63,440 nucleotides of DNA from a virus (Duplodnaviria; Caudoviricetes). The position numbers and the translations under genes are program-made. Location: positions 1 to 63,440 of the IMG/VR virus record IMGVR_UViG_3300047509_000062. One strand, written 5' to 3'. Below are positions 11,982-28,708 of the stretch, one piece after another; position 1 is the stretch's first letter; the number at the start of each line of letters is the position of its first letter. The notes under the pieces are model-generated. The model worked only from the letters and a program-made list of their open reading frames with translations. It searched no databases and was not told the origin of the DNA.

Positions 11982-12182
11982 ATGCCTCAAAACCAACTTA
12001 ACGACTTAGAACCGTTTGACGACCCTTACGATTTTTCGGACGACGAGCCGTGCGCGCACGAAGATTTCTCGATAAATTGGGACGGTCGTGCGGAGTGCGA
12101 TTATTGCTCACATTCATGGTGGGCAACGCAAGCGCAGATTGATTCTCACGCGCGCCTAATGTCTGGGCTTGGCGAGCCATGA
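11982..12182 (+). CDS. Small acidic hypothetical protein with a CxxC motif
   Basis: Stop overlaps the initiator start. Confidence 0.5.
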   Translation: MPQNQLNDLEPFDDPYDFSDDEPCAHEDFSINWDGRAECDYCSHSWWATQAQIDSHARLMSGLGEP

Positions 12183-13018
12183 CAGACGCGCTCGATGCCA
12201 CCGGCCTGCCGAGTATGCCCCTCGAAATCGAGCGCCTGAAGCGGTCAAAGACATGGCGGCGATGCAGGACCGAACCATTCCTAGCCTACTACGTAGCGAA
12301 TCTCTGGATGGCTGCCTTCCACGGCGTGCCTGCAGGCAGTCTCGAGGATGACGACGAATTGCTTGCCGAGCTCGCTGGCTGTCTCCCCCTCGAATGGGTG
12401 CGTGTGCGTCCGATCGCCCTCCATGCTTGGCAAAAGAGGGAAGATGGCAGGCTATATCACCCGATTGTCGAGGCAAAGGCCCGCGAAGCCCTCTCAATCC
12501 GATCGGCAGCCAAGCGCATAGTTCGACCCCTTGCGGAACAGCCCAAGGCCGTTCTGGACCTTTTCGAATCTTGGTACGCCGAATATCCACGGAAGGTCGC
12601 GAAGGGCGCAGCTCGGATAGCCTACGGCCACGCGCTGAAGAAATGCGGCGCCGATGTCCTGCTCGAAGCGGCGAAATCCTACGCCCGCAAGGTTTCGTTG
12701 AGCGACCACAATTTCCTCCCATACCCCGGCACTTGGCTCAACAACGAGCGATGGCTTGAAATTAAATTTCCGCGTCTCTCCGAAAAGCGCGTTGACCTTT
12801 CTGGTTCCTGGAATGGTCGCGCTTCACGGCTTCAGGCCGAAATCGGGGAACACGCCTTCCGCGAATGGTTTGGGTCTGCCGAGCTGGTTGAAGGCTCGCC
12901 ACTCGTCATTCGCTTGCCCAAGACATTCCAGCGGGATTGGATCGAGGGTCACTTTGCTGGCCCCCTCCGTCGCGCGGTAGGTGACTTCAGGCTTGAAGTC
13001 GGAAAGCAACAGGTTTAG
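12179..13018 (+). CDS. Phage replication initiator with a C-terminal DnaA N-terminal (domain I)-like domain
   Basis: DUF1376-like N-terminus (PAGSLEDDDELLA...DGRLYHP); FESWY.EYPRKVAK.AA..AY and YPGTWLNNERW; RLQAEIGEHAFREWF...PKTFQRDWIEGHF. Confidence 0.75.
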   Translation: MTDALDATGLPSMPLEIERLKRSKTWRRCRTEPFLAYYVANLWMAAFHGVPAGSLEDDDELLAELAGCLPLEWVRVRPIALHAWQKREDGRLYHPIVEAKAREALSIRSAAKRIVRPLAEQPKAVLDLFESWYAEYPRKVAKGAARIAYGHALKKCGADVLLEAAKSYARKVSLSDHNFLPYPGTWLNNERWLEIKFPRLSEKRVDLSGSWNGRASRLQAEIGEHAFREWFGSAELVEGSPLVIRLPKTFQRDWIEGHFAGPLRRAVGDFRLEVGKQQV

Positions 13019-16253: not shown

Positions 16254-16709
16254 ATGAACGGGGTTTTGATCTTGTGTTTGGGGTGTAAGCAGTGGCACGG
16301 CAATCTCGACCGCTGCCCACCTCCGGGCATGGGATTGCCGCCGCCAGTTTTGAAGGGTGTGAGGGAGGATTGTCCTACCGGGTCGCCGATTGAGACCTTA
16401 CAGGCACCGCGTAAAGACGCAGACAGTCCTAGGCCACTGCCGGCGGTACACGAGGATCGAGGCGTCGTGGTCGAACGCCCCCGGTCGGAGAATTCTCCCC
16501 CTTCGTCTAAAGGCAGGACACCGCGCTTTGGACGCGGCAACCGTGGTTCGACCCCACGAGGGGGAGCCACGGGCGAGCTTGAGGTTCTGAAGGCGAAGAT
16601 TGCTGAGATTGAGGCTGAGAAGGCGGAGCGAAGGGCAAGGACGCTCGAGCGCGTGCGCCGGCACCGGGCGAACGCCAAGGCGAAGGCTGGGAAGGTTGTT
16701 CCTGAATGA
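16254..16709 (+). CDS. Hypothetical protein (N-terminal CxxCxxxH, basic C-terminal helix) that overlaps a tRNA
   Basis: CLGCKQWH...CP and EKAERRARTLERVRRHRA; stop coupled (ATGA) to the next gene. Confidence 0.55.
   Translation: MNGVLILCLGCKQWHGNLDRCPPPGMGLPPPVLKGVREDCPTGSPIETLQAPRKDADSPRPLPAVHEDRGVVVERPRSENSPPSSKGRTPRFGRGNRGSTPRGGATGELEVLKAKIAEIEAEKAERRARTLERVRRHRANAKAKAGKVVPE
16496..16569 (+). tRNA. tRNA-Gln(UUG)
   Basis: Acceptor TCCCCCT/AGGGGGA, anticodon arm CCGCG-CTTTGGA-CGCGG, T arm CGTGG-TTCGACC-CCACG, encoded GCCA end. Confidence 0.85.
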
Positions 16710-16930
16710 CCGTCGAATCGACATTCATCTACCGGGTTGTTGTCGTTACACTGGCGGCGGTGATTGTGTGCGTGGTGGCGGCACTTCTCGTCGGGCTCTT
16801 CGATCCGCGCGTGGACAATGACAAAATCTTCCCCATCGTCGGGCACGCATTTGATACAATCACAGGTGCCTTTGTCGGCATTCTGAGCGGTCTTGTCATG
16901 GGCAAGCAGTCGAGGAAGGAGGGCGAATGA
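16706..16930 (+). CDS. Small two-TM membrane protein
   Basis: Two hydrophobic segments; coupled to genes on both sides. Confidence 0.7.
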   Translation: MTVESTFIYRVVVVTLAAVIVCVVAALLVGLFDPRVDNDKIFPIVGHAFDTITGAFVGILSGLVMGKQSRKEGE

Positions 16931-17745
16931 CCGTGCCGCTTCCACAAAACAAGTACCAGATAATTCAGCAGCATCTTGCCATGCAGCAAGCGGCGCAGCA
17001 GCCGATGGCAATGCAGGGAGTCAGCCTGCAACCGCAACAATATCAAGGATACCTGAACTCACTTATGGGTCAATCGCAAGCCTCAACGGTCATTGCCGCA
17101 GGGGCAGGCTACACCAACCAACTTATGCTAATTTACCATCCACAGGAGATCAACTACGATGGCGCAGATTGGAAAGCCGAAGAAGAAATTTGTTTCGATC
17201 CCGTTGACGGAACCTGTGCCGTCGCTGCCAGAGCCGAACGGGCCTTGCGTCAGGTCGCCAACGCTTCCAGAGTCGCTGCCTATATCGGAGCCTCTCTTTG
17301 CGCCGCCTTCAAACCTCCCATCGAAAACGCCGGAATACGTATAGGCGAGATCGAGGCGTTCCGCTGCTGGAATGTGCTGTGTGGAAAGCTTCAGAGCGTT
17401 GCACATCAAACGATATGGCCTGACGACTGGAAGATTGAGGCCGACAATCTTCCAGAGGAAGACAACTGGCACGGCATCTATGCGTACAAAACCGAGCAGG
17501 ACGCGATAGCTCACGGCGGCATGGTGGCCGGGAAGGTCAAGTTGTGGGGCCAGATTATCGAGCATGAGGAAGGATATCGGGCGCAATATGCGAAGGTCGT
17601 AAGCATCGATCATTTCCTGCACGGTACGTCGCGTGATTGCCTTCGAGTGCGAGAGCCGGAGCGCCAGCCAATTATCGCCAACTCAGGCAACTGGACAGGC
17701 TACGGATTGTGTAATGATGGCTCACTGTATCAGGTAGACCCATGA
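16927..17745 (+). CDS. Phage hypothetical protein with a Gln-rich N-terminus
   Basis: EIEAFRCW...GIYAYK...VAGKVKLWGQIIEHEEGYRAQYAKV motif. Confidence 0.7.
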   Translation: MTVPLPQNKYQIIQQHLAMQQAAQQPMAMQGVSLQPQQYQGYLNSLMGQSQASTVIAAGAGYTNQLMLIYHPQEINYDGADWKAEEEICFDPVDGTCAVAARAERALRQVANASRVAAYIGASLCAAFKPPIENAGIRIGEIEAFRCWNVLCGKLQSVAHQTIWPDDWKIEADNLPEEDNWHGIYAYKTEQDAIAHGGMVAGKVKLWGQIIEHEEGYRAQYAKVVSIDHFLHGTSRDCLRVREPERQPIIANSGNWTGYGLCNDGSLYQVDP

Positions 17746-18575
17746 TTATCGCGCTGGCTTCCGACCACAACGGCGTCACGCTGAAATCCCGTCTCAAGTG
17801 TGATCTTGCTGAGTTGACGAAACACCGCTTTATCGACCTCGGGCCACTCGGTTCATGGGCAGTGGACTATACCACCTACGCCCGCCAGTTGGGGGAGATA
17901 GTTGCGAGCGGAGATGTTGCCCGCGGCATTCTGATCTGTGGGACCGGCGTCGGCATGTCGATCGTGGCGAACAAGGTTGCGGGCGTTAGGGCGGCGCTCG
18001 TCCACAACATGCTCTGCGCCGGCAAGTCTAGGGAGCATAACGACGCCAATGTTCTCTGCCTCGGTTCCTGGGTTGCGAGCGACGAACAGAATATCGCCTT
18101 CGCGCGTGAATGGCTACATGGATCGTTCGGAGAGGGTCGCCATGTTCGCCGCGTCGAGCAGATCGAGCGCAGGCCGGGGCGGCTCGTATTCGCGAACGGG
18201 GTATTTGATATCCTCCATCAGGGCCATATTGATTTGCTGCGCTGGGCCAAGTCGCTTGGCTCGTGGCTGGTTGTCGGCATCAATTCGGATGATAGCGTGA
18301 GGCGGTTGAAAGGCAACGGTCGCCCAATCAATCGCGCCGAAAACCGCAAGGCGATTCTCGAATGCCACCGCTTTGTCGATGAGGTGATTATCTTCGACGG
18401 CGAACCTTCTGAGCTGGTCGAACAAATCCATCCCGATATTGTCGTCAAAGGTTCCGAATGGACGGCGGCGGAGGTTCGTGAGCGCGATGCTATCCCAGAT
18501 TGGTGCGAGGTCAAGGTGTTTCCCATCGTGGCAGGATATTCCACCACGCAGATTGTCGAGAGGATGAGAGCATGA
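17742..18575 (+). CDS. rpiB: Fusion of an RpiB-type sugar-phosphate isomerase and an HldE/RfaE domain II-type nucleotidyltransferase
   Basis: ASDHNG, DY, ILICGTGVGMSIVANKVAGVRAA, REHNDANVLCLG, GRH.RR; then NGVFDILHQGH, VGINSDDSVRRLKG.GRPIN, PDIVVKG, GYSTT. Confidence 0.92.
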   Translation: MIIALASDHNGVTLKSRLKCDLAELTKHRFIDLGPLGSWAVDYTTYARQLGEIVASGDVARGILICGTGVGMSIVANKVAGVRAALVHNMLCAGKSREHNDANVLCLGSWVASDEQNIAFAREWLHGSFGEGRHVRRVEQIERRPGRLVFANGVFDILHQGHIDLLRWAKSLGSWLVVGINSDDSVRRLKGNGRPINRAENRKAILECHRFVDEVIIFDGEPSELVEQIHPDIVVKGSEWTAAEVRERDAIPDWCEVKVFPIVAGYSTTQIVERMRA

Positions 18576-18781
18576 AAAAGAAAATTAACGGAGGAACGGC
18601 CACATTTCATAGAGCAGAGAGAGGATGGCATTGGACGGTACACCGACGTTTGAAAAATCCCCCGCCTCTTATAACCAAAGAGGGAAAGATATTTTATTGT
18701 TGGGATAGCGTGCAGAGCGGCTTCGGATGGGTTCCGTCGCTTAATGCGGCGCGTAGTATGGCCCACAGTTTATTGCGATGA
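18572..18781 (+). CDS. Small hypothetical protein inserted in the sugar operon
   Basis: ATGA coupling at both ends. Confidence 0.5.
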   Translation: MKKKINGGTATFHRAERGWHWTVHRRLKNPPPLITKEGKIFYCWDSVQSGFGWVPSLNAARSMAHSLLR

Positions 18782-19434
18782 ACGTCTCCGAAGCCTGCCG
18801 CGAACTTGCAGCGCACGGCCTTGTCCCGTGGTCGAGCGGGAATGCGAGTGTCCGCGAAAGCCATGTCTCGAAAGAGTGTCCGAGTGGTATGGACTATATG
18901 CGGATCAAAGGAACGGGGTTTCGTTGCTCGCGAGCAACCGACACAAACATAGCCTTAGTACAAATTGTTGACGGGTACATATGTGGAGAGCCTAAACCAT
19001 CCACCGACTCCGAAGCCCACCGCTGGATTTACAACCACCTCCCCGATATCAACGGGGTGGTTCACACTCACAGCCACTATGCTACTACATTCGCGGTCTC
19101 GCACAAGGAAATTCCCTGCTGCATGACGCAGATGGAGGACGTGTTCGGCGGCAATATCCCGCTCTCAGAATACTGCCAGATCGGCGGCGAGGACATCGGC
19201 AAGGAGGTTGTGAGGCTATACGAGCGCACGCATGTCCCTGCCGTCCTGATACGCTCACATGGCCTGTTTACGATAGGCGATACGCTGGAGAACGCAGTCC
19301 GCAACGCCATCCTAGCCGAACACTGCGCCGCAATCGCATGGCGCGCGATGCAGATGGGAAACGTGTTTGTGCCGAGCAAGGAAGAGATTGCGAAGAACCA
19401 CGAACGCTATACGAACGAATACGGCCAGCCATGA
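18778..19434 (+). CDS. araD: Class II aldolase family, L-ribulose-5-phosphate 4-epimerase-like
   Basis: SSGNAS, KPSTD, VVHTHSHYAT, SHG zinc ligands, C-terminal YGQ. Confidence 0.85.
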   Translation: MNVSEACRELAAHGLVPWSSGNASVRESHVSKECPSGMDYMRIKGTGFRCSRATDTNIALVQIVDGYICGEPKPSTDSEAHRWIYNHLPDINGVVHTHSHYATTFAVSHKEIPCCMTQMEDVFGGNIPLSEYCQIGGEDIGKEVVRLYERTHVPAVLIRSHGLFTIGDTLENAVRNAILAEHCAAIAWRAMQMGNVFVPSKEEIAKNHERYTNEYGQP

Positions 19435-20390
19435 ACGTACACGAACTCCTCGCCTCATTCGAGAGCAAGCGTATATTAGTTGTGGGCGATCTCGTCATAG
19501 ATATCGCGACACACCTTGAACGCATCAAGGATGACGACACCGGCAAGCCCACCTACCGCACGATACTGGACGAGCGCGGCAAGGCGGATCGTTTCTCCAT
19601 CGGCGGCGCCGGTCTCGTGGTTCGCAACCTTCTGGAACTCGGGGCCAAGGTGGATTTTATTACCGCGACCGGCTACGGCACAGGCTCTCTCCATGCCGAG
19701 ACATTCCAGCATATCAATCTCACGAAGCACGCAATCAAGGTCGCCAAGCCACAGACAGTCAAGCACCGCTTCTGGTGCGGCGGCGAGAAGGTGATGCAGG
19801 TTGATACGGTGGATAATTCACCGCTTGAGTGGGTTGATGAAACGTCGCTGTGGGTTCAGTGGGATATGAGCGTAGGTCTGTTCTCAAAATCTCACGACGC
19901 GATCATTGTTGCAGATTATCGACACGGACTTATAAACGAGGACACCGCGCACCGCATCGTGAAAGCTCGCAACAAAGATATTCCTCTCTACGTCTCCTCT
20001 CAGGTCGCGCAGTCTGGAAGCAATCACGAATGGTATGTTGCGCCAAATGTCGTCATTGTGATGAATAAACACGAGGCGGAGGAGAGTGGTCTGTCGGCAT
20101 GTGATTCGTTCCGTGAGGCGATAGTAACGGACGGTGATCGCGGAGGGTGGATTTACACACCGAAGGGAATAGAGAATTGGGGTCCGGCATTCGTGAACGC
20201 AATCGATCCGTGCGGTGCCGGCGATGCTTTCCTAGCCGCATACTCTCTCACGCACGACCTGCAATTCGCCAACACATGGGCTGGATTGAGCGTAACCGTT
20301 CAAGGCGCAAATCCTCCGACGAAACAGATGCTCCTCGGCTGGCACGAGAAGCAAAACTTCGAGCCGTTTGAAATGGCGTTCTGCGGATGA
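19431..20390 (+). CDS. PfkB-family sugar kinase, HldE/RfaE domain I-like
   Basis: ILVVGDLVID, GGAGLVVRNLLELGA, T.K.RF, IIVADY.HG, DPCGAGDAF. Confidence 0.88.
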   Translation: MNVHELLASFESKRILVVGDLVIDIATHLERIKDDDTGKPTYRTILDERGKADRFSIGGAGLVVRNLLELGAKVDFITATGYGTGSLHAETFQHINLTKHAIKVAKPQTVKHRFWCGGEKVMQVDTVDNSPLEWVDETSLWVQWDMSVGLFSKSHDAIIVADYRHGLINEDTAHRIVKARNKDIPLYVSSQVAQSGSNHEWYVAPNVVIVMNKHEAEESGLSACDSFREAIVTDGDRGGWIYTPKGIENWGPAFVNAIDPCGAGDAFLAAYSLTHDLQFANTWAGLSVTVQGANPPTKQMLLGWHEKQNFEPFEMAFCG

Positions 20391-20761
20391 AGCGCCAACT
20401 GGAAAGAAAGGTCACATATTGGGGCGGCGTTGATTTCGTCCGCGCCTCGACGGGGCTTGCGGTTAAGGTTATTTACATGCGTTCTGGGTGTCAAAGCAGC
20501 CTCGAATACCATGTCAAAAAGCACGAAATCTATTGGCTGGCGGAAGGCGAATTGAAGATTGGCTTGCGTTCTGGACGCGGCGTCAATTCATCCGTCACGC
20601 TGAAAGAAGGCGAGTGCTATGAGATAGCTCCCGGAACGATGCACATGCGTATCGCGCTCACGGACTGCGCGATATACGAAGCCTGTTCCTATGACGATGA
20701 TTCTGATACGTTCATCGTTGAGCCGGGAGAAACGTATCAACACAAGGACACAATCGCATGA
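20387..20761 (+). CDS. Cupin-fold sugar isomerase-like protein
   Basis: YWGG...SSLEYHVKKHE....EG.L...IAPGTMH...IYEA.SYDDDSDT. Confidence 0.8.
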   Translation: MKRQLERKVTYWGGVDFVRASTGLAVKVIYMRSGCQSSLEYHVKKHEIYWLAEGELKIGLRSGRGVNSSVTLKEGECYEIAPGTMHMRIALTDCAIYEACSYDDDSDTFIVEPGETYQHKDTIA

Positions 20762-21498
20762 GCGAATTTTTCCTCGACAGCGCCAACCTTGACGACATCA
20801 AAGCCTGCGTCGAGCGCGGCATCATCTCGGGAGTAACGGTCAACCAATCTCTCCTCGCCAAGGAGCCGAAGCGGCCCTACGAGGAGCATCTTGCGGACAT
20901 CGTCAACCTGCTGCGTCCCGACAAGCTGCATCTCAGCGCGCCGGTCCCAGAAGGTACACCGGAGCAGATGATTGAAGCCGGTAAACAACTACGTGCCGCG
21001 CTGCGTTACGAAAATCTCGCACTCAAAGTGCCGGTATCGTGGGCAATGCTTCCCGTCATCCACGAACTCAGCAAGACGGGTGCCGTGAATGCGACATGCG
21101 TATTCACCGCGCTACAGGCGAAGCTGGGCGCTGATGCAGGCGCGAACGCTGTCTCCGTATTCGTGGGCCGCATCAATGATGCAGACGAGCCTCAGAAGCA
21201 GGCGGGCTACACGGTGCTGCGCGATGTTCACTTGCGTAGATATAACGACCAACCAATCGAGACACATGCGAAAGCAACCCTATTCAATCCGGCACCCGCG
21301 CCAGAGAAGAAGGTTATTCTCCCCCGCATCATCGCCGGCAGCATCCGCGATTCCGACATGGCTAAAGCGGCCATCCTTGCGGGCGCAGATATCGTCACCA
21401 CCTCTCGCGCCGTTCTGGAAGCAATGGCAACTGACGCACATTCACAGACCTCAATCGACAAATTCAACGCGGACTGGACGGCATGGACCAGCCCGTAA
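20758..21498 (+). CDS. Transaldolase / fructose-6-phosphate aldolase family (TalC/MipB type)
   Basis: FFLDSANL, GVTVNQSL, LKVP (Schiff-base Lys), VNATCVFT..QA, FVGRIND, IIAGSIR, AGADIVT. Confidence 0.88.
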   Translation: MSEFFLDSANLDDIKACVERGIISGVTVNQSLLAKEPKRPYEEHLADIVNLLRPDKLHLSAPVPEGTPEQMIEAGKQLRAALRYENLALKVPVSWAMLPVIHELSKTGAVNATCVFTALQAKLGADAGANAVSVFVGRINDADEPQKQAGYTVLRDVHLRRYNDQPIETHAKATLFNPAPAPEKKVILPRIIAGSIRDSDMAKAAILAGADIVTTSRAVLEAMATDAHSQTSIDKFNADWTAWTSP

Positions 21499-22910
21499 AC
21501 AATCTGTTCTCGCTCCGTCGCAAGCAGGCCATCGAATTCGTCAATCAGGGCGTGATCGACACGAACGGCGCCAATGGACTGCCCAAGAATCCGCAACTTG
21601 GGTATCAGAAAATATGCTCTGCCGTCGAAATCGACCCGACATTCGCGCACGGCTGGTTCAATGTCGGCAACGCGAACGGTGACTTGAAGCTGGGGCGGGC
21701 TGCTGTTGCGGCCTATAGACGCGCGCTACAGATGAAAAAGGGCACCGAGATTGGCGATCTCACGGCGAACTACCGCGCGCATTGCCTCTGCAACCTGGGC
21801 CACAGCCTCTATCATCTGGGAAAACTGGACGAAGCCAAGCAGCACACTCTAGCGTCAATCGAGATGGACAACAAGCTCGCCTTCTCGTGGATCAATCTCT
21901 CCATGATCCAATCCATGCAGGGCGAGGACGAAGCGGCGGAAGTATCAGCCCGCAAGGCACATTTTCTGGACTCGGGGAACGCTGCCATTGAAGTTGGATT
22001 GGCCTTTTCTCTGCTACATCAGAAGAAATATGAGGAGGGTTTACGAGCCTTTGAAGCCCGCTACCCGTATAAGCTCACGCATTTCCTCCAGTACCCATAC
22101 CCGCAATGGAAGGGGGAGAATGGCGCCGAATTATTCCTCTGCTCCGATCAGGGGCTTGGTGATTCGATCGATTTCCTCCGCTTCGTTCCAGAAGTGCAGA
22201 AGCGGTGCAAGCATGTCTGGCTCGGCTGCCAGCAGGAATTGATCTCGACCGTGCAGGCCATGTTCGGCCACTATGAGAATTTTACGTTCCTTCCTCTCCC
22301 CCAACCGTTCCCGCCCGCTACCCATTGGGCGGCGCTGATGAGCCTGCCGACCGCTCTGAGGCTCAACGACAAGCAGATCGCCAATACGCCGATGCCGGAA
22401 TGCAAGGTGCCGGATACCGCTGCACCGTGGAAGAACGAGAACGCAAAGTTTCATGTCGGCATCGCGTGGGCAGGATCGCCGATGAACGAGGTTGACCAAT
22501 ACCGCTCCGCATCGGTGGATAATTTCCTCGAGCTGGCCCGCGTGCCGAATGTTCAACTCTATTCGTTGCAGGTTGGCGAGCGAGCGCCGGAACTGCACAT
22601 CGCAGGCGCGGCCACAATCCTCAAAGACCTGTCGGCGTACATCCGAACGGTCATGGATACGCTTTCCATTCTCAAACATCTCGACATGGTGATTTGCGTC
22701 GATACCGGCGTGGGGCACATGGCCGGGATGATGGATGTGGAAACGTGGATACCCGTGGCGTATAACGGTTGCTGCTGGCGATTTACGCGGCACGGGGAGA
22801 GTGCGTTGTGGTATGGAAAACACCGCCTGTTCAGGCAAGGCGCAGACGCCAAGTGGGAGCCAGTGTTCGAAAATATCGTCGCTGAATTGGATCGGAAAGT
22901 GAATGGCTGA
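21483..22910 (+). CDS. TPR-repeat protein fused to a GT-B, GT9-like glycosyltransferase
   Basis: N-terminal TPRs (AHGWFNVGNA, CNLGHSLYHLGKLDEA); DQGLGDSIDFLRF, VGIAWAGS, YSLQ, LDMVICVDTGVGHMAG. Confidence 0.88.
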   Translation: MDQPVNNLFSLRRKQAIEFVNQGVIDTNGANGLPKNPQLGYQKICSAVEIDPTFAHGWFNVGNANGDLKLGRAAVAAYRRALQMKKGTEIGDLTANYRAHCLCNLGHSLYHLGKLDEAKQHTLASIEMDNKLAFSWINLSMIQSMQGEDEAAEVSARKAHFLDSGNAAIEVGLAFSLLHQKKYEEGLRAFEARYPYKLTHFLQYPYPQWKGENGAELFLCSDQGLGDSIDFLRFVPEVQKRCKHVWLGCQQELISTVQAMFGHYENFTFLPLPQPFPPATHWAALMSLPTALRLNDKQIANTPMPECKVPDTAAPWKNENAKFHVGIAWAGSPMNEVDQYRSASVDNFLELARVPNVQLYSLQVGERAPELHIAGAATILKDLSAYIRTVMDTLSILKHLDMVICVDTGVGHMAGMMDVETWIPVAYNGCCWRFTRHGESALWYGKHRLFRQGADAKWEPVFENIVAELDRKVNG

Positions 22911-23814
22911 ACGGGACATAGTCGAGATGCTTTGTGATCTACACAAGCAGGCGACTGTTGAGCGAAGCCATTATTACACTGGAAAAGTTATCGCGTTAGC
23001 AACATCGGAAATAATCAATCTTCGCTCTGAAAATGCCAGACTAAAAGAAATAGCGAGAGGCACCAATGGTACTGGGCAATGTAAGCCATGATGTAATCCC
23101 GTCTCTGTCTCAGGACGAAGAGACGATCATGATGCTGGCGATCAGTGGTGAATCCATGATGCCTATCGGGCGATGGGAGAAGCCTGTCGAGCATCTCGTG
23201 GAGTTGGGGTTTCTCAATGGTCCTGACCGATTCAACGCCTACATCACGAATGAGGGCAAGAAATTCTGGGCTGCGCATGTTGAGGGGCAACCGCAACGCC
23301 TCGCATCGCAAATAGAGGAAGCGCACGGCTCCATCACGGACGCCATCCGAAAATGCGCAGAGACGTTGGCGGAAGCTGCGCGACAATCCAGCAAGGCAAC
23401 CGGAGACCGGCCACAATTCATCGCGAAGAAATGGAGCAAGGTCATTCTGACCGAAGCGTTGAAGCTCCTCGACCCATGAACGGCGTTGCATTCCTTGACG
23501 AGGACGTGCGGTTCTTCTCGCAGAACACGAAGCGTCAGATACGCATTCGCCGCGCGCATACCGGGGAGCGCAACGAGGAGTTTAACTCGCTAGGCTTTCA
23601 CGACCCGGAGCGCCGTCGCATTATCGCGTGGAAGGTACCGAAGGGCAATCCGTTCGGCGAGGGGCGCATACTGAAAATTCCATATCTGCAATTCGCGGAC
23701 GAAACGATAGTGGACAGCGACGAAGTGTTGCTGCCGATACTGAAAGAGATCATGCTCGACGCGGCGGAGAAGCACGGCATCAAACCGCCAGCGAGGATAC
23801 ACAATGGCTGCTAA
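22903..23814 (+). CDS. Three hypothetical genes (22903-23091, 23066-23479, 23476-23814)
   Basis: Overlapping ORFs between the glycosyltransferase and the terminase. Confidence 0.55.
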
Positions 23815-24022
23815 CATGCGAACGGTGTTTTCGTCCACGGTGTTGGAGATTGGTCACGATCCTGATACGAACGAGTTACACGTCCGCTGGCGCTCAGGAA
23901 AGCATAGCGTATATTCCGGCGTTCCTGCACACCTTGCAGATTCGGTATCGTCCGCGTGGTCGATCGGTAAGGCCATTCACTCACAGGTAAAGCCATTTCA
24001 CGAGCATCGGTATGATGAATGA
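23804..24022 (+). CDS. KTSC domain protein
   Basis: V.SS.V.EIGHDP....L.VRW.SG....YSGVP.......A.SIGK. Confidence 0.85.
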   Translation: MAANMRTVFSSTVLEIGHDPDTNELHVRWRSGKHSVYSGVPAHLADSVSSAWSIGKAIHSQVKPFHEHRYDE

Positions 24023-24270
24023 GTGAAGAAACAGATTTCTCTAAGCCATTCCGTGCGATGGCAACCCGCATAGACATGAACGCGAAAGAGGGGTTCAGCG
24101 GGGCGTTTGTGATTAGACCGCCGGGGGATCAGCCAGAGGTCGCGTTGCTCCTGCTCCATAACAAGGAAGACGCCGCTATGTTCTGGAGTCTCGTGAAAAC
24201 GAAGGCTGAAATCGCGTTGCAGGAACTCGCCTCTGCAGAACAACAAAACCAATGGCATGGACGGCGGTAG
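24019..24270 (+). CDS. Hypothetical protein upstream of the terminase
   Basis: 83-aa coupled ORF. Confidence 0.6.
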   Translation: MSEETDFSKPFRAMATRIDMNAKEGFSGAFVIRPPGDQPEVALLLLHNKEDAAMFWSLVKTKAEIALQELASAEQQNQWHGRR

Positions 24271-24277
24271 ATGCGTC

Positions 24278-26182
24278 ATGTCGTCATGGACAAGGCAAAA
24301 GCGGGAGACATTCGAAGCCGCGTTCTATGAATTTCTAGGCACGGTCTACATCAATTCCAAAGACCTTGGGAAAACATGCCTCGGAGATAACATCTACGAA
24401 GCGCAGCGCCGCTTTATATCCACTGTCCTAGACGGGCTGGAAGAGGACATTCACAACATCTACGTGTTGAAGAGTCGGCAGCTTGGCCTCTCGACTATCT
24501 CGCGCGCCTTCACGGTGTTCTATCTCGGGATGCACGATGGGTTAGGCGGCGCAACTGTATTCGACACGGACGAGAACAAGAACAACGCCCGCCGTGAAAT
24601 CGAGAGCATGATTACTAATCTGCCGAAGTCGATACAGTTTCCGCGCATAAAGGGGAACAATCGTGGCGGGATATTTCTGCAAAACGAATCCGGCATTCGC
24701 TTCATGGCGGCGGGCGTTAAAAAGAGTAAATCGAGCGGCGTGCTTGGTCGATCCGTTGGCCTCTCATTCGCCCACTGTTCGGAGCTATGTTCGTGGGATG
24801 CTGGAGAGGGTGTTGAGGCGTTCATCAATTCGCTATCGGAAGAAAACCCCGACCGTCTGTATATTTGGGAAAGTACCGCGCGAGGATTCAACTTATGGCA
24901 CGAGCTGTGGACCACGGCTCGCGAAGACATAAATCATTCGAAGTGTTTGTTCCTCGGCTGGTATCTGAAGCCAAACCAGCAGATCAAGCGCAGCGATCCA
25001 GATTTCGAACGATACGGCGTCGATCCTCCATCCAAGAAGGAAATGAAGCGCATCAACGAGGTGCGCGAGAAGTACAACTGGAACATCACGCCGGAACAGC
25101 TCGCATGGGTTCGTCGCAAGATGGACCCGACTGCGAAAGCGGAAGGCGATGCAAAGGCGGAATATGTAGGTAGTACGCTTCGATTGCAGGAGCAACCCTG
25201 GACCGAAGAAGACGCTTTCCAGATGACGGGAGCGACGTTCTTTGATCCTCCCACGCTGACGGAGATGGCAAACAAGCACGTCAACAAGAAATTCAAGACC
25301 TATAGTTACGCTCCGGGGATAGAGTTTTCGGATTGCAAGATATATCCGGCTCACAATGCGCGTTCCGTCGAATTGAAAGTGTGGGAGGAACCGGAGGAGG
25401 GAGCAACCTATGTGGTATCTGCTGACGTTGCGTTCGGCATCAACGAGAAGAATGATAGGTCCGCGGTTCAGGTTCTTCGATGCTATGCGGACGGTCTGGA
25501 TCAGGTTGCGGAATACGCTTGGCCGCTGATTAACAGCCGCGCGTTCGGTTGGGTGATAGCTTCGTTGCTAGGCTGGTACGCTGGCGAAACCGCCGATGTG
25601 TATCTCATTCTGGAATTGAATGGCCCCGGCGAGGCGACATGGAACGAACTGCAATCGCTGAAACGCTATCTCGCGATGCCGTATGAGCCGAAGCAGGTGG
25701 AGGAAAAGGGCCTTCGCAACATCTTCCGCAACGTCAAGAGCTATATCTACACCCGTTCGGATTCTATGAGTGCCGGCCATGCGTTGCAATTCAAGACGAC
25801 CACGCAGCTCAAGGTCACGATCATGGAGAGGTTGCGGGATTTCGTCTCCAACGGTATGCTTCATGTGCGGTCTCTGGACACGATAGAGGAGATGAGATCG
25901 GTTGCCCGCGACGGAGATTCAATCGAGGCGCAGGGGTCGAAGAAAGACGACCGCGTTATGTCTCTGGCCCTTGGGGTGCATTGCTGGGAAGCAAAGCCGC
26001 GACGAATCATGATGGCGCAGAAGCTCACTCGGGAGAATGTGATCGCCCGGAAGCGCCTGACCGTCAAGGACCAATATCAGCTTTACAACACAAACCAGTT
26101 GCAGACATTCTTCGATGCGAAGCGTAAGCAGCGGGTGGCGACCGCAGCGGCAATTCGACGGGCGTCATGGAGAAGCAGATGA
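24278..26182 (+). CDS. terL: Terminase large subunit
   Basis: Walker A LKSRQLGLST, Walker B FAHCSE, motif III ESTARG, nuclease VSADVA and KDDRVMSLA. Confidence 0.9.
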   Translation: MSSWTRQKRETFEAAFYEFLGTVYINSKDLGKTCLGDNIYEAQRRFISTVLDGLEEDIHNIYVLKSRQLGLSTISRAFTVFYLGMHDGLGGATVFDTDENKNNARREIESMITNLPKSIQFPRIKGNNRGGIFLQNESGIRFMAAGVKKSKSSGVLGRSVGLSFAHCSELCSWDAGEGVEAFINSLSEENPDRLYIWESTARGFNLWHELWTTAREDINHSKCLFLGWYLKPNQQIKRSDPDFERYGVDPPSKKEMKRINEVREKYNWNITPEQLAWVRRKMDPTAKAEGDAKAEYVGSTLRLQEQPWTEEDAFQMTGATFFDPPTLTEMANKHVNKKFKTYSYAPGIEFSDCKIYPAHNARSVELKVWEEPEEGATYVVSADVAFGINEKNDRSAVQVLRCYADGLDQVAEYAWPLINSRAFGWVIASLLGWYAGETADVYLILELNGPGEATWNELQSLKRYLAMPYEPKQVEEKGLRNIFRNVKSYIYTRSDSMSAGHALQFKTTTQLKVTIMERLRDFVSNGMLHVRSLDTIEEMRSVARDGDSIEAQGSKKDDRVMSLALGVHCWEAKPRRIMMAQKLTRENVIARKRLTVKDQYQLYNTNQLQTFFDAKRKQRVATAAAIRRASWRSR

Positions 26183-26421: not shown

Positions 26422-26987
26422 CCAAGATGCGGACCTACGAATGCCCTTCATGCGTTGGACGCTTCGAATATCTGCATCATCCCAATGTCCAAGCTGACCC
26501 CCCTCCCCGTTTCTGTCCTCTATGCGGCTTCGACACGCTCGCGGACGAAGCATTGGCTCTCACGGTTCCTATTACGTCTCCGCACATTCAGAACTCGGCT
26601 GTCGTTAAGGGTGTGGATGGCGCATGGCAGGCCGAACAGGAAGGAGCGAAATTCAGGGCCGAATTGAGTGGCGAATCGTCTCTCTCTATCACGGACATGA
26701 AGGACAATCTCAGGGCGGGGGATATCACGGCAATTCCGGTCAACAATACCGTCACGCAGGCCATGGAGCAGACTCCGGGGCAATTCGGCTGGCAACGCGA
26801 ACAGGGACTAGCCGTGTCTCAACTGGCCCATTCGTTCCCCGATCCACGCCTCGGCAAGGTGATTATGCCCAACGCTGGCGCAAGGGCCATGAATGCTGTA
26901 CGTTCGGCTCACGCGGCGGCTGGCGGGACCATAACCGATACTCCGGCGCTTGAGACGCAACAGCCGGGATATCGGAGACGGGCGTGA
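26418..26987 (+). CDS. Zinc-ribbon (FmdB-like) protein
   Basis: YECPSC..RFE...CPLCG; lies between terL and portal. Confidence 0.65.
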   Translation: MTKMRTYECPSCVGRFEYLHHPNVQADPPPRFCPLCGFDTLADEALALTVPITSPHIQNSAVVKGVDGAWQAEQEGAKFRAELSGESSLSITDMKDNLRAGDITAIPVNNTVTQAMEQTPGQFGWQREQGLAVSQLAHSFPDPRLGKVIMPNAGARAMNAVRSAHAAAGGTITDTPALETQQPGYRRRA

Positions 26988-28708
26988 TCCGGTTAGACAC
27001 TGAAAACCGCAGGAAGCTCACAAGTCAGGTTCTCGAAATTGCCGACTCGTGCCGCGCTTCTCAGGGCATGAGGGCGGCGTATTACAGGCTTCTCAGCGCC
27101 CTTTGCGATACCGGAACACAGGACGGCGAACGCTCGCTAATCAACAAGCTCTATAACCATATCGACCGTCTAGCCGCCCATCTTTTCAGCCCGACATCTC
27201 TGCAATTCAACATCGATTTCGAGAATGTGTATCCGAAGAACGTCATGGAACGTGGACACGCGGCGGCGCGCATTCTCACTCGCCAATTCGAGCGGTCGAA
27301 TACCGACACGACCTTTGCCCGCGGGGTGTTCGAAGCCCTGAAATATGGGGCCGCTATCCTGAAACAATGGCCTGAACAGGTTGAGGACGGCAAGGTAGAG
27401 TATCAGAAATCCATCGTCATGCCGTGGCAGTTTTCGGTCTATCGCGAGGACATGAACGACCTGTCAAAGCAATCTGCCATGTGCGAGACGGCCATGCTTA
27501 CGTTGCCGGAAGTATGGCGGCGCATCTATCACTTCCCGGACGCGGACAAGCTATTCACAAGGATCAAGACGCACGCGCAACGCGGCGATGCCGATTCGGA
27601 ATACAACAGCTTCTTTCATCAGGTGCTATCGACTTCTCAGTTACAGACAGGGATTCAGGGTGCGACACGACCGATACCGGGAGGCATAGTCCAGCTCGCC
27701 AACAATCCGAATCAGGCGGTCATGTCGCCGCAGTTGTCCGTCGATCTCGTCAAATTCCACGAGGTTTGGGTGCAGGGCGAGAAGGATTACGTCACGCTGC
27801 AAATCATCGAGCCTGACGTTCTCATAGCCCCGAGACCGGATTTCAAGCTGTCGAACCTGCTAATTTCCGGCGACAATCATTCAGGAGTCCACCCATACAC
27901 GCTTATCCAGCCCAACGAAGTGCAGGGCTATTTCTTCGGGCGGTCAGAACTCACCGACCTCATGCGGCCACAGGAATTGCTGTCGATATTCACCGACGAT
28001 GCAAAGCGTCTCGTAGGGCTTCAGATCGACAAGATCATCGGATTTGTCGGGTTCGACGGGTTGACAGACGAGCTATACGACCAGCAACGGAACGCCGGAT
28101 TTGTCAATGCCCCACAGGGCACAACGATGACGGACCTTACCCCGAAATTCCCATCCGAACTCCTGCCATTCATCCAGTTTCTGATTACCACCGTTGACCA
28201 GATGGGAGGCTTCGATAACATCCTCGCCGGCAAGGGCGAGCCCGGAGTTAGAGCAGGAAGTCACGCACAGACATTGCTGAAAACGGCTTCTCCACGTCTC
28301 CGGGATCGTTCCTTGCTTGTGGAACGCCAGTGTGCCCAAGCCGCAGATTTGCTTCTAACCGTAATGGAAGCCAAGGACGCGCACAATTACTGGACGGACG
28401 GGACCGATCTAAAGACGATTGAGCAGTCATCCTTCAAGCTGGACGATTTACCGGAAGATCGCCGCGTTTCAGTCGATTCGCATTCTTCCAGCCCGATATT
28501 TGCCGACGATCATCAGCAACTCATCGCGTTCGGATTGCAGGCTGGGATCATCGACGGCCACTATGCAATAGACAATCTGCCGTATCCCGACAAGGAACGG
28601 GCTCACGCGAATTTACGGGACAAGGAAAAGAGGGAAGCGGAATTGCTCCAGCAGCATCCTGAATTGCTGGAGAAGATGGTTGGTAAAGGCGGCGGTCACA
28701 AACACTAG
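26984..28708 (+). CDS. Portal protein
   Basis: 574 aa after terL; FFGRSEL and ILAGKGEPGVRAGSHAQTL portal-like motifs. Confidence 0.8.
   Translation: MIRLDTENRRKLTSQVLEIADSCRASQGMRAAYYRLLSALCDTGTQDGERSLINKLYNHIDRLAAHLFSPTSLQFNIDFENVYPKNVMERGHAAARILTRQFERSNTDTTFARGVFEALKYGAAILKQWPEQVEDGKVEYQKSIVMPWQFSVYREDMNDLSKQSAMCETAMLTLPEVWRRIYHFPDADKLFTRIKTHAQRGDADSEYNSFFHQVLSTSQLQTGIQGATRPIPGGIVQLANNPNQAVMSPQLSVDLVKFHEVWVQGEKDYVTLQIIEPDVLIAPRPDFKLSNLLISGDNHSGVHPYTLIQPNEVQGYFFGRSELTDLMRPQELLSIFTDDAKRLVGLQIDKIIGFVGFDGLTDELYDQQRNAGFVNAPQGTTMTDLTPKFPSELLPFIQFLITTVDQMGGFDNILAGKGEPGVRAGSHAQTLLKTASPRLRDRSLLVERQCAQAADLLLTVMEAKDAHNYWTDGTDLKTIEQSSFKLDDLPEDRRVSVDSHSSSPIFADDHQQLIAFGLQAGIIDGHYAIDNLPYPDKERAHANLRDKEKREAELLQQHPELLEKMVGKGGGHKH

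What the first reader, a model, noticed from the sequence alone, without database searches (positions are those of the whole stretch)
17742..22910. Self-contained phage sugar-nucleotide operon ending in a TPR-GT9 glycosyltransferase: candidate virion/protein glycosylation system
Seen: six overlapping, coupled enzyme genes (RpiB fused to an HldE-type nucleotidyltransferase, AraD-like epimerase, HldE-type kinase, cupin, transaldolase-like, TPR+GT9-like), on the same strand and just upstream of terminase/portal/capsid. Established: HldE kinase and adenylyltransferase make ADP-heptose, which GT9 enzymes use. TPR arms usually select protein substrates. AAH/TibC heptosylate Ser residues of proteins, and some mycobacteriophages glycosylate their virions with phage-encoded transferases. 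Inference: this phage builds its own activated sugar from pentose-phosphate intermediates and transfers it to proteins, most plausibly its Ser/Thr-rich capsid and tail proteins. Host LPS or host proteins are alternative targets. This is a donor-plus-transferase pathway, not the isolated talC-type metabolic gene of cyanophages.
Basis: partly seen in the sequence, partly recalled or inferred. Interest (0 to 1): 0.88.

Follow-up and report, generated by a model that had tools for sequence, protein, structure and literature searches.

The report
Phage sugar-nucleotide operon with TPR glycosyltransferase
An uncultivated soil phage carries a bacterial-type operon for making an activated heptose-like sugar directly in front of a glycosyltransferase shared by its whole phage family, which suggests that these phages attach sugars to a protein or surface target that has not been identified.

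Summary
Window 17742-22910 is a same-strand chain of overlapping genes. It encodes an RpiB fused to an HldE-II-type nucleotidyltransferase, an extra 69-aa ORF, an AraD-like class II aldolase, a PfkB kinase (start 19431), a small cupin, a short transaldolase, and a TPR protein. The C-terminal half of the TPR protein has a GT9 heptosyltransferase fold (VIA Z 15.9-17.6 against 12.5 or less for other GT-B), although it misses the Pfam GT9 threshold.

Two histories are joined here. The TPR-GT9 gene is a core gene of a large clade of 62-67 kb uncultivated phages. It was present in 80 of 80 loci examined, upstream of terminase in 77, and none of these loci has the cassette. Most of them carry a nucleotide-sugar epimerase instead. 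The five-enzyme cassette is a bacterial-type operon. Its closest cellular relatives are in Acidobacteriaceae MAGs (57-61% identity), where a GT9 gene lies next to it in 3 of 3 genomes. It appears to have been captured once by this phage subclade.

A donor-plus-transferase reading is therefore supported. "Self-contained" is not, because the record has no phosphatase. The acceptor (virion protein, host protein or envelope glycan) is untested. I rate this a new variant of a known kind, of moderate interest.

The parts
16927..17745 (+). Upstream 272-aa ORF of unknown function. It is the first member of the overlapping gene chain.
   Evidence: ATGA overlap with 17742. No Pfam or PHROG family. tblastn homologue in 7 of 80 relatives' loci. 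Matches a 273-aa upstream ORF of L066.
17742..18575 (+). Fusion protein: an RpiB-type sugar-phosphate isomerase (aa 1-143) joined to an HldE-domain-II-type nucleotidyltransferase (aa 148-277).
   Evidence: PF02502 1.9e-44, PF01467 2.2e-16. NF004051 148.9 bits (cut-off 135); TIGR02199 148.1 bits (cut-off 181.5). phrog_7878 4.7e-31. The motifs CGTGVG, FDILHxGH and STT are kept in 10 of 10 phage-clade homologues.
18572..18781 (+). Small 69-aa ORF, coupled at both ends, function unknown.
   Evidence: ATGA overlaps at 18572 and 18778. No Pfam family. No tblastn match in any fetched locus.
18778..19434 (+). Class II aldolase/epimerase, similar to AraD (L-ribulose-5-phosphate 4-epimerase).
   Evidence: PF00596 4.6e-42. 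NF005123 211.4 bits (cut-off 251). Best solved relative is 1jdi, L-ribulose-5-P 4-epimerase, 2.5e-22. Present in the cassette copies of L082-084, L141 and L142, but not in L143-146.
19431..20390 (+). PfkB-family sugar kinase, a distant relative of the HldE kinase domain.
   Evidence: PF00294 3.2e-12. TIGR02198 73.7 bits (cut-off 345). In the bacterial operons the orthologous kinase is the best rfaE_dom_I match in each genome, at 188-193 bits. The start at 19431 follows from the ATGA overlap.
20387..20761 (+). Small single-domain cupin of the mannose-6-P isomerase / lyxose isomerase type.
   Evidence: Weak in Pfam: Cupin_2 1.6e-3, Cupin_1 3e-3. phrog_7851 5.5e-12. Atlas feature scores 0.97-0.98 and TM 0.83-0.93 to viral cupin clusters in which minorities carry PMI or lyxose-isomerase families. 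Homologues lie near HldE-type NT genes in 28 of 59 viral loci.
20758..21498 (+). Short transaldolase / fructose-6-phosphate-aldolase family enzyme (TalC/FSA type).
   Evidence: PF00923 7e-32. TIGR00875 112 bits (cut-off 246). Best solved relatives are short transaldolases 3r8r and 1vpx. phrog_440 6.9e-35.
21483..22067 (+). TPR arm of the transferase, about 10 helices, aa 1-195.
   Evidence: TPR_2 1.3e-9, TPR_1 2.6e-9. In the AF2 model (pLDDT 94.5) helices span residues 11-203. The whole model matches the TPR + GT-B architecture of SPY/OGT.
22068..22910 (+). Compact GT-B catalytic domain with a GT9 (heptosyltransferase) fold, aa 196-475.
   Evidence: AF2 domain model pLDDT 90.2. Foldseek top hits are WaaF 1psw (5.9e-7), WaaC, 3tov and TibC. 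VIA-align Z 17.6, 17.3, 16.7 and 15.9 for GT9 chains against 12.5 or less for other GT-B. PF01075 scores only 15.2 bits at 22665-22736. hhalign to a GT9 alignment gives only a 41-column motif match, probability 25.8%. 27 of 30 Atlas feature hits fall in clusters where 43-57% of members carry PF01075.
22903..23091 (+). 62-aa ORF overlapping the end of the transferase gene, function unknown.
   Evidence: 8-nt overlap. No tblastn homologue in the relatives' loci.
24257..26182 (+). Large terminase. Context only: it marks the start of the packaging and structural module.
   Evidence: phrog_24361 terminase 2e-6. Found downstream of the TPR-GT gene in 77 of 80 relatives at 49-62% identity.

Best explanation
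Window 17742-22910 is a translationally coupled gene chain in a nearly complete uncultivated tailed phage of about 63 kb. It joins two things.

(1) A bacterial-type five-enzyme operon, captured once by an ancestor of this phage subclade. It takes pentose-phosphate-pathway intermediates to a nucleotide-activated heptose or other higher-carbon sugar. All of the following steps are inferred:
- The short transaldolase, the RpiB domain and the AraD-like enzyme supply or shape a ketose phosphate such as sedoheptulose-7-P.
- The cupin or the RpiB domain isomerises it to the aldose phosphate, taking the place of GmhA.
- The PfkB kinase phosphorylates C1.
- A host phosphatase removes the distal phosphate. 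The phage encodes none.
- The HldE-II-type domain makes the NDP-sugar.

(2) An older core gene of the whole phage clade: a TPR arm fused to a compact GT9-fold transferase. It transfers the sugar to a macromolecule selected by the TPR arm. That acceptor is most likely a protein, and a phage virion protein is the leading but untested candidate.

In most relatives the transferase works without the cassette, presumably on a host-made nucleotide sugar tailored by a phage SDR epimerase. The cassette here therefore reads as a donor-supply or donor-switch module.

What is shown: gene content, fold, synteny and evolutionary pattern. What is inferred: substrates, product and acceptor.
For: - Domain calls for all enzymes.
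- The transferase domain has a GT9 fold: VIA Z 17.6/17.3/16.7/15.9 for WaaF, 3tov, TibC and WaaC against 12.5 or less for other GT-B, and Foldseek agrees. The whole model resembles TPR-GT-B protein glycosyltransferases SPY/OGT.
- The QGxGD motif occurs in 115 of 120 homologues, and a DTGVGH motif aligns with the GT9 D-S-G-P-x-H-L-A region.
- Cassette and GT9 genes are linked in independent settings. A PF01075-positive gene (84-90 bits) lies about 1 kb beyond the operon in 3 of 3 bacterial genomes (coordinates cross-checked). A PF01075-positive gene lies directly upstream of the cassette in L083. A canonical HldE plus a HAD phosphatase (L260) or an NT-kinase fusion (L267) lies next to distant TPR-GT9 homologues, in 2 of 80 metagenome loci.
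- The operon enzymes are dedicated paralogues. The bacterial genomes also hold a stand-alone RpiB and long transaldolases elsewhere. The operon kinase is their best HldE-kinase-like gene.
- The clade pairs the transferase with sugar-nucleotide genes. An extended-SDR nucleotide-sugar epimerase (phrog_540 4.3e-50; Fcl/HldD-like) lies about 1.1 kb upstream in 43 of the 54 loci that have at least 5 kb of upstream sequence. A sugar C-methyltransferase does so in 3.
- The subclade holds both genes.
- Unbroken overlapping junctions. Catalytic motifs kept in 10 of 10 phage-clade fusion proteins.
Against: - The transferase occurs in 80 of 80 relatives with none of the five enzymes. Adjacency could reflect insertion into a variable region rather than shared function.
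- In most relatives a serine recombinase gene lies between the SDR and the transferase (42 loci).
- The transferase misses the Pfam GT9 cut-off, and profile-profile homology to GT9 is only local (probability 25.8%).
- The kinase and nucleotidyltransferase are below their equivalog cut-offs, so the sugar may not be heptose.
- No phosphatase or GmhA in the record.
- The TPR-GT9 homologue in bacterial genome G001 lies on another contig from the operon.
- No evidence of any kind for the acceptor. Structural proteins show no Ser/Thr-rich tails. Neighbours of 56 distant homologues gave no recurrent acceptor gene; FliD_C appeared in 2 of 120 ORFs.
Confidence: 0.45

Rival explanations
1. The cassette and the transferase remodel a host envelope glycan (LPS inner core or exopolysaccharide) during infection. 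This could mask receptors, block superinfection, or stop progeny from adsorbing to debris. The TPR arm would serve for membrane or complex docking rather than for choosing a protein substrate.
For: The best structural matches include the LPS heptosyltransferases WaaF and WaaC. In bacteria the operon lies near a Bac_transf initiating sugar transferase and a conventional GT9. Metagenomic surveys have read phage hldE and heptosyltransferase genes as LPS-related auxiliary genes (passages read in PMC10747093 and bioRxiv 10.1101/2021.02.03.429590).
Against: The N-terminal (acceptor) half of the GT-B domain is much shorter than in WaaC/WaaF: 232-248 of 320-344 target residues aligned. It is fused to a TPR arm, the layout of protein glycosyltransferases. 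The gene is a core gene next to the packaging module in every relative, which is unusual for a host-conversion gene.
Confidence: 0.25
2. The TPR-GT9 enzyme glycosylates a host protein (takeover or counter-defence). It would act like bacterial protein heptosyltransferases or O-GlcNAc-type enzymes, with the cassette providing the donor.
For: TPR + GT-B architecture similar to OGT/SPY. TibC, a protein O-heptosyltransferase, is among the top fold matches (Z 16.7). Cellular TPR plus the same domain are widespread: 16 full-length matches in 12 of 201 genomes searched, and Atlas structural neighbours at TM 0.87-0.91.
Against: No candidate host target. No NCBIfam hit to the Aah/TibC model at E<=0.01. 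The gene lies at the head of the late module rather than among early genes.
Confidence: 0.15
3. The five enzymes are a metabolic auxiliary module. They redirect the pentose phosphate pathway toward ribose-5-P and nucleotide supply, or supply host LPS synthesis. They landed by chance in a variable region next to an unrelated core TPR gene.
For: 0 of 80 relatives with the TPR gene have the cassette. The region upstream of the TPR gene is variable: HNH genes, recombinase and methyltransferases. Transaldolase is a common phage auxiliary gene family (phrog_440).
Against: The kinase and an HldE-II-type nucleotidyltransferase have no role in nucleotide supply. The operon is GT9-linked in 3 of 3 bacterial genomes and in L083. 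The bacteria keep separate housekeeping RpiB and transaldolase genes. There is a 16-nt coding overlap between TAL and the TPR gene.
Confidence: 0.12
4. The transferase glycosylates phage DNA, as the glycosyltransferases of T-even phages and other phages with hypermodified DNA do.
For: Phage-encoded glycosyltransferases that decorate DNA are well known. I saw this only as a citation (Pyle et al. 2024) inside PMC12619734.
Against: No thymidylate-synthase-family hydroxymethylase in the 99%-complete record. A TPR arm is not a feature of known DNA glycosyltransferases (recalled, not tested). The fold is GT9.
Confidence: 0.03

Closest known systems
ADP-heptose pathway (GmhA, HldE, GmhB, HldD) with the GT9 LPS heptosyltransferases WaaC/WaaF
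   Same: HldE-II-type nucleotidyltransferase (TIGR02199 1.4e-43) and an HldE-I-like kinase. GT9 fold of the transferase. Supply from sedoheptulose-type pentose-phosphate intermediates is plausible.
   Different: No GmhA or GmhB. The nucleotidyltransferase is fused to RpiB rather than to the kinase. There are extra cupin, short transaldolase and AraD-like genes. The kinase is far below its equivalog cut-off. The transferase is a compact domain of about 280 aa behind a TPR arm and is below the Pfam GT9 threshold.
BAHT protein O-heptosyltransferases (TibC, AAH) of enterobacterial autotransporters
   Same: A GT9-related fold that uses ADP-heptose on protein serines. TibC is a top fold match (Z 16.7, rmsd 3.6, 245 aligned).
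   Different: No hit to TIGR04414 at E<=0.01. No TPR in TibC. The iron site and dodecamer were not examined. The acceptor here is unknown.
TPR-guided GT-B protein glycosyltransferases: OGT, SPINDLY, Caulobacter FlmG
   Same: An N-terminal TPR arm followed by a GT-B catalytic domain. The whole-model Foldseek top hits are SPY and OGT (E 3.4e-11 and weaker). FlmG is described as a TPR N-terminal domain plus a GT-B C-terminal domain that modifies flagellins (passage read in PMC7591256).
   Different: The catalytic domain is closer to GT9 than to GT41: XcOGT Z 10.1 against 17.6. The donor is probably a heptose-type sugar, not UDP-GlcNAc, GDP-fucose or CMP-pseudaminic acid.
Mycobacteriophage virion glycosylation (Freeman et al. 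2023)
   Same: Phage-encoded glycosyltransferases near the structural genes that decorate capsid and tail-tube subunits. I saw this only as a summary and citation in PMC12619734; the paper itself is not held.
   Different: Different transferase families and hosts. No donor-synthesis cassette is described in the passage I read. No Ser/Thr-rich C-terminal extensions are evident here. Glycosylation is not demonstrated.
HldE-type nucleotidyltransferase / kinase / cupin / epimerase islands of cyanomyoviruses and Streptomyces phages (phrog_7878)
   Same: Nucleotidyltransferase homologues at 37-46% identity in 67 phage records. Some have a carbohydrate kinase (S-SSM7), or a cupin annotated 'cysteine dioxygenase' and a nucleotide-sugar epimerase (P-TIM68) beside them. 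In IMG/VR, 26 of 59 loci have a kinase nearby and 28 of 59 a cupin.
   Different: Those lack the RpiB fusion, the AraD-like gene and, mostly, the transaldolase (6 of 59). Their function is also unknown. Only weak TPR-GT9 homologues exist in isolated phages: 5 records at 23.5-26.3% identity.
Lincosamide GDP-octose pathway (LmbR transaldolase, LmbN isomerase, LmbK phosphatase, LmbO nucleotidyltransferase)
   Same: The same logic: a dedicated transaldolase builds an unusual ketose phosphate, which is then isomerised, phosphorylated and nucleotidylated. The gene-function table was read in PMC12945683. The order of steps is recalled, not read.
   Different: No sequence relationship was tested. It is offered only as a precedent that a pathway-specific transaldolase can point to a sugar larger than heptose.

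Membership tests
CAZy GT9 / Pfam PF01075 heptosyltransferases | Scores above the Pfam Glyco_transf_9 gathering threshold (22 bits) | tested here: not met
   No hit at E<=0.01. 15.2 bits over model positions 179-202 in the six-frame search. Some distant homologues do pass or come close: L260 at 19.9 bits, and 3 of 120 neighbourhood ORFs.
CAZy GT9 / Pfam PF01075 heptosyltransferases | GT-B fold closest to solved GT9 enzymes | tested here: met
   VIA-align against 48,161 chains: 1psw Z 17.6 (rmsd 3.4, 244 aligned), 3tov 17.3, 4rap 16.7, 2h1f 15.9. The next unrelated GT-B scores 12.5. The Foldseek top 10 are all GT9 or TibC chains.
CAZy GT9 / Pfam PF01075 heptosyltransferases | N-terminal G-D catalytic-base motif and C-terminal D-[ST]-G-x-x-H donor-binding motif. 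The roles of these motifs are recalled from the WaaC literature and come from no call. | tested here: inconclusive
   QGLGD at residue 223 and DTGVGH at 407. QGxGD occurs in 115 of 120 homologues, and the second motif in 79 of 120. hhalign aligns the second motif with the DSGPMHLA region of GT9 genes, but at probability 25.8% only.
CAZy GT9 / Pfam PF01075 heptosyltransferases | Uses ADP-heptose as donor | not testable with these tools
   Only context is available: HldE-type genes next to the gene here and next to distant homologues.
BAHT (Aah/TibC) protein O-heptosyltransferases, TIGR04414 | Match to the equivalog model | tested here: not met
   No TIGR04414 hit at E<=0.01 for the window protein. 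Fold similarity to TibC (Z 16.7) is no higher than to WaaF.
GT41 (OGT/SPINDLY) | TPR arm followed by a GT41 catalytic domain | tested here: not met
   The architecture is similar, but the catalytic domain aligns better to GT9 (Z 17.6) than to XcOGT 2jlb (Z 10.1).
HldE (bifunctional heptose-7-P kinase / heptose-1-P adenylyltransferase) | Kinase domain reaches the TIGR02198 cut-off (345 bits) | tested here: not met
   73.7 bits.
HldE (bifunctional heptose-7-P kinase / heptose-1-P adenylyltransferase) | Nucleotidyltransferase domain reaches the TIGR02199 cut-off (181.5 bits) | tested here: not met
   148.1 bits, E 1.4e-43, over the full model length 3-143 of 144. This is a close relative but not an equivalog.
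Canonical ADP-heptose pathway | GmhA (SIS) isomerase and GmhB (HAD) phosphatase present | tested here: not met
   No SIS_2, TIGR00213 or Hydrolase_like match in the 63,440-base record. Controls rang in 11, 11 and 14 of 14 genomes.
RpiB/LacA/LacB sugar-phosphate isomerases | Reaches the subfamily cut-offs, and the catalytic Cys motif is present | tested here: met
   TIGR00689 147.6 bits (cut-off 88.3) and NF004051 148.9 bits (cut-off 135). The RpiB equivalog TIGR01120 scores 130.7, just under 138.65. CGTGVG at residue 66. The role of the motif is recalled.
Transaldolase / fructose-6-P aldolase (PF00923) | Reaches the Pfam cut-off; short TalC/FSA subtype | tested here: met
   111.4 bits (cut-off 27). 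The equivalog TIGR00875 scores 112 against 246, not met. The best solved relatives are short transaldolases.
Phage virion glycosylation systems | Glycan detected on virion proteins and dependent on the phage transferase | not testable with these tools
   No isolate and no proteomic data. Only gene position next to the packaging module is available.

The most novel reading that the evidence does not exclude
A large, uncultivated clade of soil phages has as a core function a TPR-guided GT9-type protein heptosyltransferase that coats virion proteins. Its members swap the donor-sugar module: an SDR epimerase in most, and a captured five-gene operon here. The glycan coat would then be a diversifiable trait. 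The operon itself would be an undescribed, GmhA-independent route (RpiB/cupin isomerase plus a dedicated short transaldolase) to a nucleotide-activated heptose or octose, also used by Acidobacteriaceae.
Probability: 0.2. Interest if true: 0.8.

Novelty: new variant of a known kind. Interest (0 to 1): 0.58.

Why it matters
Virion or target glycosylation by phages of Gram-negative soil bacteria is essentially unexplored. Here the transferase is not an occasional accessory gene. It is a core gene in at least 239 IMG/VR contigs. It is paired with interchangeable nucleotide-sugar genes, which gives a concrete family in which to test what phages glycosylate and why. The cassette also points to an uncharacterised bacterial operon (RpiB-nucleotidyltransferase fusion, kinase, cupin, short transaldolase, adjacent GT9). 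That operon may be a variant heptose-activation route in Acidobacteriaceae, a group whose envelope chemistry is poorly known. If the acceptor turns out to be host LPS, the finding is more ordinary: an auxiliary LPS gene set.

Tried and rejected
- DNA-level similarity of the whole segment to 50,697 phage records: no match.
- Sequence searches of the transferase against PDB gave only TPR hits for the full length. A profile of the catalytic domain gave no hit at all at E<=10. The GT9 assignment therefore rests on fold.
- hhalign of the catalytic-domain alignment against six Pfam-positive GT9 genes gave only a 41-column local match (probability 25.8%).
- The first metagenome scan, with the single protein, found nothing. 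It returned relatives of 43% identity or less and many cellular homologues near 30%, but not the 48-63% relatives seen.
- The promoter and terminator scan was at chance level: 7 found against 6.8 expected, and 12 against 12.9.
- A Pfam tally was run on 120 randomly drawn ORFs, out of 144 ORFs within 3 kb of 61 distant homologues. It gave mostly other TPR proteins (10), then GT2 (4), GT9 (3), FliD_C (2) and PfkB (2). No recurrent acceptor emerged.
- Host assignment through prophages failed. The terminase gave one weak partial match in 201 genomes of the family of G001. The RpiB-NT fusion at E<=1e-60 was found only in G001 itself among the 201. The host is therefore only tentatively acidobacterial.
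- Chimeric contig or recent host copy: rejected. Cassette GC/GC3 is 0.559/0.649 against 0.558/0.634 for the structural genes. The junctions overlap. Identity to bacterial versions is at most 61%. The phage versions are monophyletic in a quick tree.
- DNA glycosylation: set aside, because no hydroxymethylase family member was found.
- Complex prediction was not run. There is no single candidate acceptor, and I do not claim a specific binding pair.
- The careful tree search did not finish in the time allowed, so the quick tree is what I report. It has 63 rows: P0121-P0175 plus L082, L083 and L141-L146. P0176-P0240 and L084 were left out.
- Supplementary files of papers were not consulted. They may hold gene tables of the cyanophage and huge-phage studies that bear on prior annotation of such cassettes.

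Full report
**What is there.** The window is a virus record of 63,440 bases rated 99% complete. Between 16927 and 23091 nine ORFs on the + strand follow one another, and every junction overlaps: ATGA six times, plus 16 nt and 8 nt.

The products are:
- An RpiB-type isomerase fused to an HldE-domain-II-type nucleotidyltransferase (17742-18575). PF02502 scores 1.9e-44 and PF01467 2.2e-16. TIGR02199 scores 148 bits, under its 181.5 cut-off.
- A 69-aa ORF without a family (18572-18781).
- An AraD-like class II aldolase (18778-19434).
- A PfkB kinase, best started at 19431. TIGR02198 scores only 73.7 bits.
- A 124-aa cupin (20387-20761).
- A short TalC/FSA-type transaldolase (20758-21498).
- A 475-aa TPR protein (21483-22910).

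The cupin is weak in Pfam. It matches phrog_7851 (5.5e-12) and viral cupin clusters of the mannose-6-P isomerase / lyxose isomerase kind.

**The transferase.** Pfam, NCBIfam and PDB sequence searches see only TPR repeats. An AlphaFold model built on 40 homologues is confident (pLDDT 94.5). As a whole it resembles the TPR + GT-B enzymes SPINDLY and OGT.

Residues 196-475 were modelled alone (pLDDT 90.2). Their best matches are GT9 enzymes:
- Foldseek: WaaF 1psw at 5.9e-7, then WaaC, 3tov and TibC.
- VIA-align against 48,161 chains: Z 17.6, 17.3, 16.7 and 15.9 for these, 15.1 for a chain of a plant NDH-PSI complex (7wff), and 12.5 or less for other GT-B folds, including XcOGT at 10.1.

At sequence level the link is thin. 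PF01075 scores 15.2 bits against a 22 cut-off, and hhalign gives only a local 41-column match to six Pfam-positive GT9 genes (probability 25.8%). Atlas feature neighbours are GT9-annotated clusters: 27 of 30, with PF01075 on 43-57% of members. The structural neighbours are bacterial proteins that combine TPR repeats with the same domain. I call it a compact, divergent GT9-fold domain, not a certified GT9 member.

**Two histories.** The TPR-GT9 protein has 263 homologues at E<=1e-3 among the 6,903 candidates scored. It also has 239 confirmed relatives in IMG/VR, many on contigs of 62-67 kb.

In the 80 loci kept:
- The gene is present in 80.
- A KTSC-domain gene follows it in 78.
- The terminase homologue follows it in 77.
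- None of the five cassette enzymes is found at E<=1e-5.

54 of the 80 loci have at least 5 kb of upstream sequence. Clustering of the 888 upstream ORFs of these 54 loci shows a conserved block:
- Two unknown proteins of about 349 and 431 aa.
- An extended-SDR nucleotide-sugar epimerase or reductase in 43 loci, about 1.1 kb upstream (phrog_540 4.3e-50; Fcl/HldD-like in NCBIfam).
- A serine recombinase in 42 loci.
- A sugar C-methyltransferase directly upstream in 3 loci.

The window has no SDR and no homologue of that block. So the transferase is a core gene, and what varies is the sugar-nucleotide gene set beside it.

**The cassette.** The RpiB-nucleotidyltransferase fusion has thousands of homologues: 7,190 at E<=1e-3 among 8,000 scored. 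All of the 120 listed are fused, and the named ones come from Acidobacteriaceae or Terracidiphilus MAGs at 57-61% identity.

Six genome-collection loci hold the full-length fusion. Of these:
- L143, L144 and L146 (Acidobacteriaceae MAGs) and L145 have fusion, kinase, a two-domain cupin and the short transaldolase in the same order.
- L141 and L142 also have the aldolase.

In the three genomes that hold L143, L144 and L146:
- A PF01075-positive gene (84-90 bits) lies convergently about 1 kb past the operon in 3 of 3 (coordinates checked).
- The operon kinase is the best HldE-kinase-like gene in each (188-193 bits).
- A stand-alone RpiB and long transaldolases exist elsewhere.
- A GmhA-like gene exists elsewhere in 2 of 3.

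The operon enzymes are thus dedicated paralogues tied to a GT9 gene, not housekeeping pentose-phosphate enzymes. Three IMG/VR contigs (L082-084) carry all five genes in the same order at 30-54% identity. In L083, the one whose neighbours I scanned, a PF01075-positive gene lies directly upstream, with further sugar-tailoring genes around it. Two of 80 metagenome loci with distant TPR-GT9 homologues have a canonical HldE plus a HAD phosphatase (L260), or an NT-kinase fusion with a Maf-like MptE gene (L267), next door.

**Origin in the phage.** I could not fetch these contigs. In a quick maximum-likelihood tree of 63 fusion proteins, the window and those five sit in one 10-row clade (SH-aLRT 96). 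That clade is sister (support 84) to a 45-row clade holding the Acidobacteriaceae sequences (careful search unfinished, midpoint root).

Cassette GC/GC3 (0.559/0.649) equals that of the structural genes (0.558/0.634). Active-site motifs of the fusion are kept in 10 of 10 clade members. It argues for one old capture followed by vertical descent.

**Mechanism.** The families, and the repeated link to GT9 genes, make a nucleotide-activated heptose-type sugar the most likely product. The steps themselves are inferred.
- A ketose phosphate, with sedoheptulose-7-P the obvious case, is supplied or shaped by the transaldolase, the RpiB domain and the AraD-like enzyme.
- It is isomerised by the cupin or the RpiB domain, since no GmhA is present.
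- It is phosphorylated by the kinase.
- It is dephosphorylated by a host enzyme, since no GmhB or HAD phosphatase is in the record.
- It is nucleotidylated by the HldE-II-type domain.

A dedicated transaldolase leaves room for a larger sugar. The lincosamide GDP-octose route is a precedent: I read its gene table in PMC12945683, and the order of its steps is recalled.

The transferase then moves the sugar to an acceptor chosen with the help of the TPR arm. By analogy with OGT, SPY and FlmG (FlmG passage read in PMC7591256), a protein is the likeliest acceptor. By position at the head of the packaging module, and by analogy with mycobacteriophages (seen only as a citation), a virion protein is the leading candidate.

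Nothing here tests the acceptor:
- The structural proteins have moderate Ser/Thr content and no Ser/Thr-rich tails.
- The neighbourhoods of distant homologues are uninformative.
- DNA is unlikely as the acceptor.
- Host envelope glycans and host proteins remain live rivals.

**Comparison and novelty.** HldE-type nucleotidyltransferases already form a PHROG (phrog_7878). They occur in 67 phage records, mostly cyanomyoviruses and Streptomyces phages, some with kinase, cupin or epimerase neighbours. In IMG/VR, 26 of 59 loci have a kinase nearby and 28 of 59 a cupin. Metagenomic papers list hldE and heptosyltransferase genes as phage auxiliary genes.

My three literature searches on phage heptosyltransferase/TPR, virion glycosylation and phage hldE returned no description of any of the following in their listings or in the passages I read:
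- The TPR-GT9 gene as a clade-wide core gene.
- The exchange of donor modules beside it.
- The RpiB-fusion operon with its cupin and short transaldolase.

This is a limited search of open-access text, made without supplements. I rate the finding a new variant of a known kind, with interest 0.58: a coherent and testable system whose key claim, what gets glycosylated, is still open.

Noticed in passing
window 16496-16569 (+): A single tRNA-Gln (anticodon TTG) lies just upstream of the gene chain and overlaps mechanically listed ORFs.
   Followed up: no
window 6022-6807 (-): A 261-aa pentapeptide-repeat protein (PF00805, 1.2e-33) in the early region. Its role is unknown. Proteins of this kind can mimic DNA (recalled, not tested).
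   Followed up: no
window 1454-2662 (-), 8244-8966 (+), 9663-11129 (+), 12179-13018 (+): The early/replication region holds RecT (2.7e-25), DUF5131 (2.7e-83), a DNA methyltransferase (phrog_67, 4.4e-63) and a DUF1376/DnaA_N protein. No thymidylate-synthase-family gene is present.
   Followed up: partly
window 23804-24022 (+): A 72-aa KTSC-domain protein (7.9e-10) lies between the transferase and the terminase. A homologue is found in 78 of 80 relatives' loci.
   Followed up: partly
window 31470-32579 and 36564-38879 (+): Both proteins match PHROGs only through stretches that different virion-protein families share (head closure Hc2, baseplate wedge, tail fibre). The proposed portal (26984-28708) and capsid (30408-31457) match no Pfam or PHROG family.
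   Followed up: partly
L001-L080, about 0.3-5 kb upstream of the TPR-GT9 gene: Most relatives carry, upstream of the transferase, two conserved proteins of about 349 and 431 aa with no Pfam, NCBIfam or PHROG family. They also carry a small serine recombinase immediately upstream (42 loci). None of these is detectable in the window.
   Followed up: partly
L267 213-7373: A metagenome contig carries, in a row, a Maf-like MptE-domain protein, a GT2, a nucleotidyltransferase-kinase fusion in reversed domain order, a DAO oxidoreductase and a 575-aa TPR-GT9 homologue. This looks like a protein (flagellin-type) glycosylation island.
   Followed up: no
L083 6502-20505: An IMG/VR contig carries the same five-gene cassette inside a larger sugar cluster: methyltransferase, GT9, Glyco_trans_1_2, GFO oxidoreductase, DegT aminotransferase and a C-methyltransferase. 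Whether this contig is really viral was not checked.
   Followed up: no
L143 11796-12668 (-) and the bacterial genomes G001-G003: A second CTP_transf_like protein (290 aa) lies between the bacterial operon and its GT9 gene. The RpiB-NT fusion at E<=1e-60 was found in only 1 of 201 sampled genomes of that family, so it is patchy in that group.
   Followed up: partly
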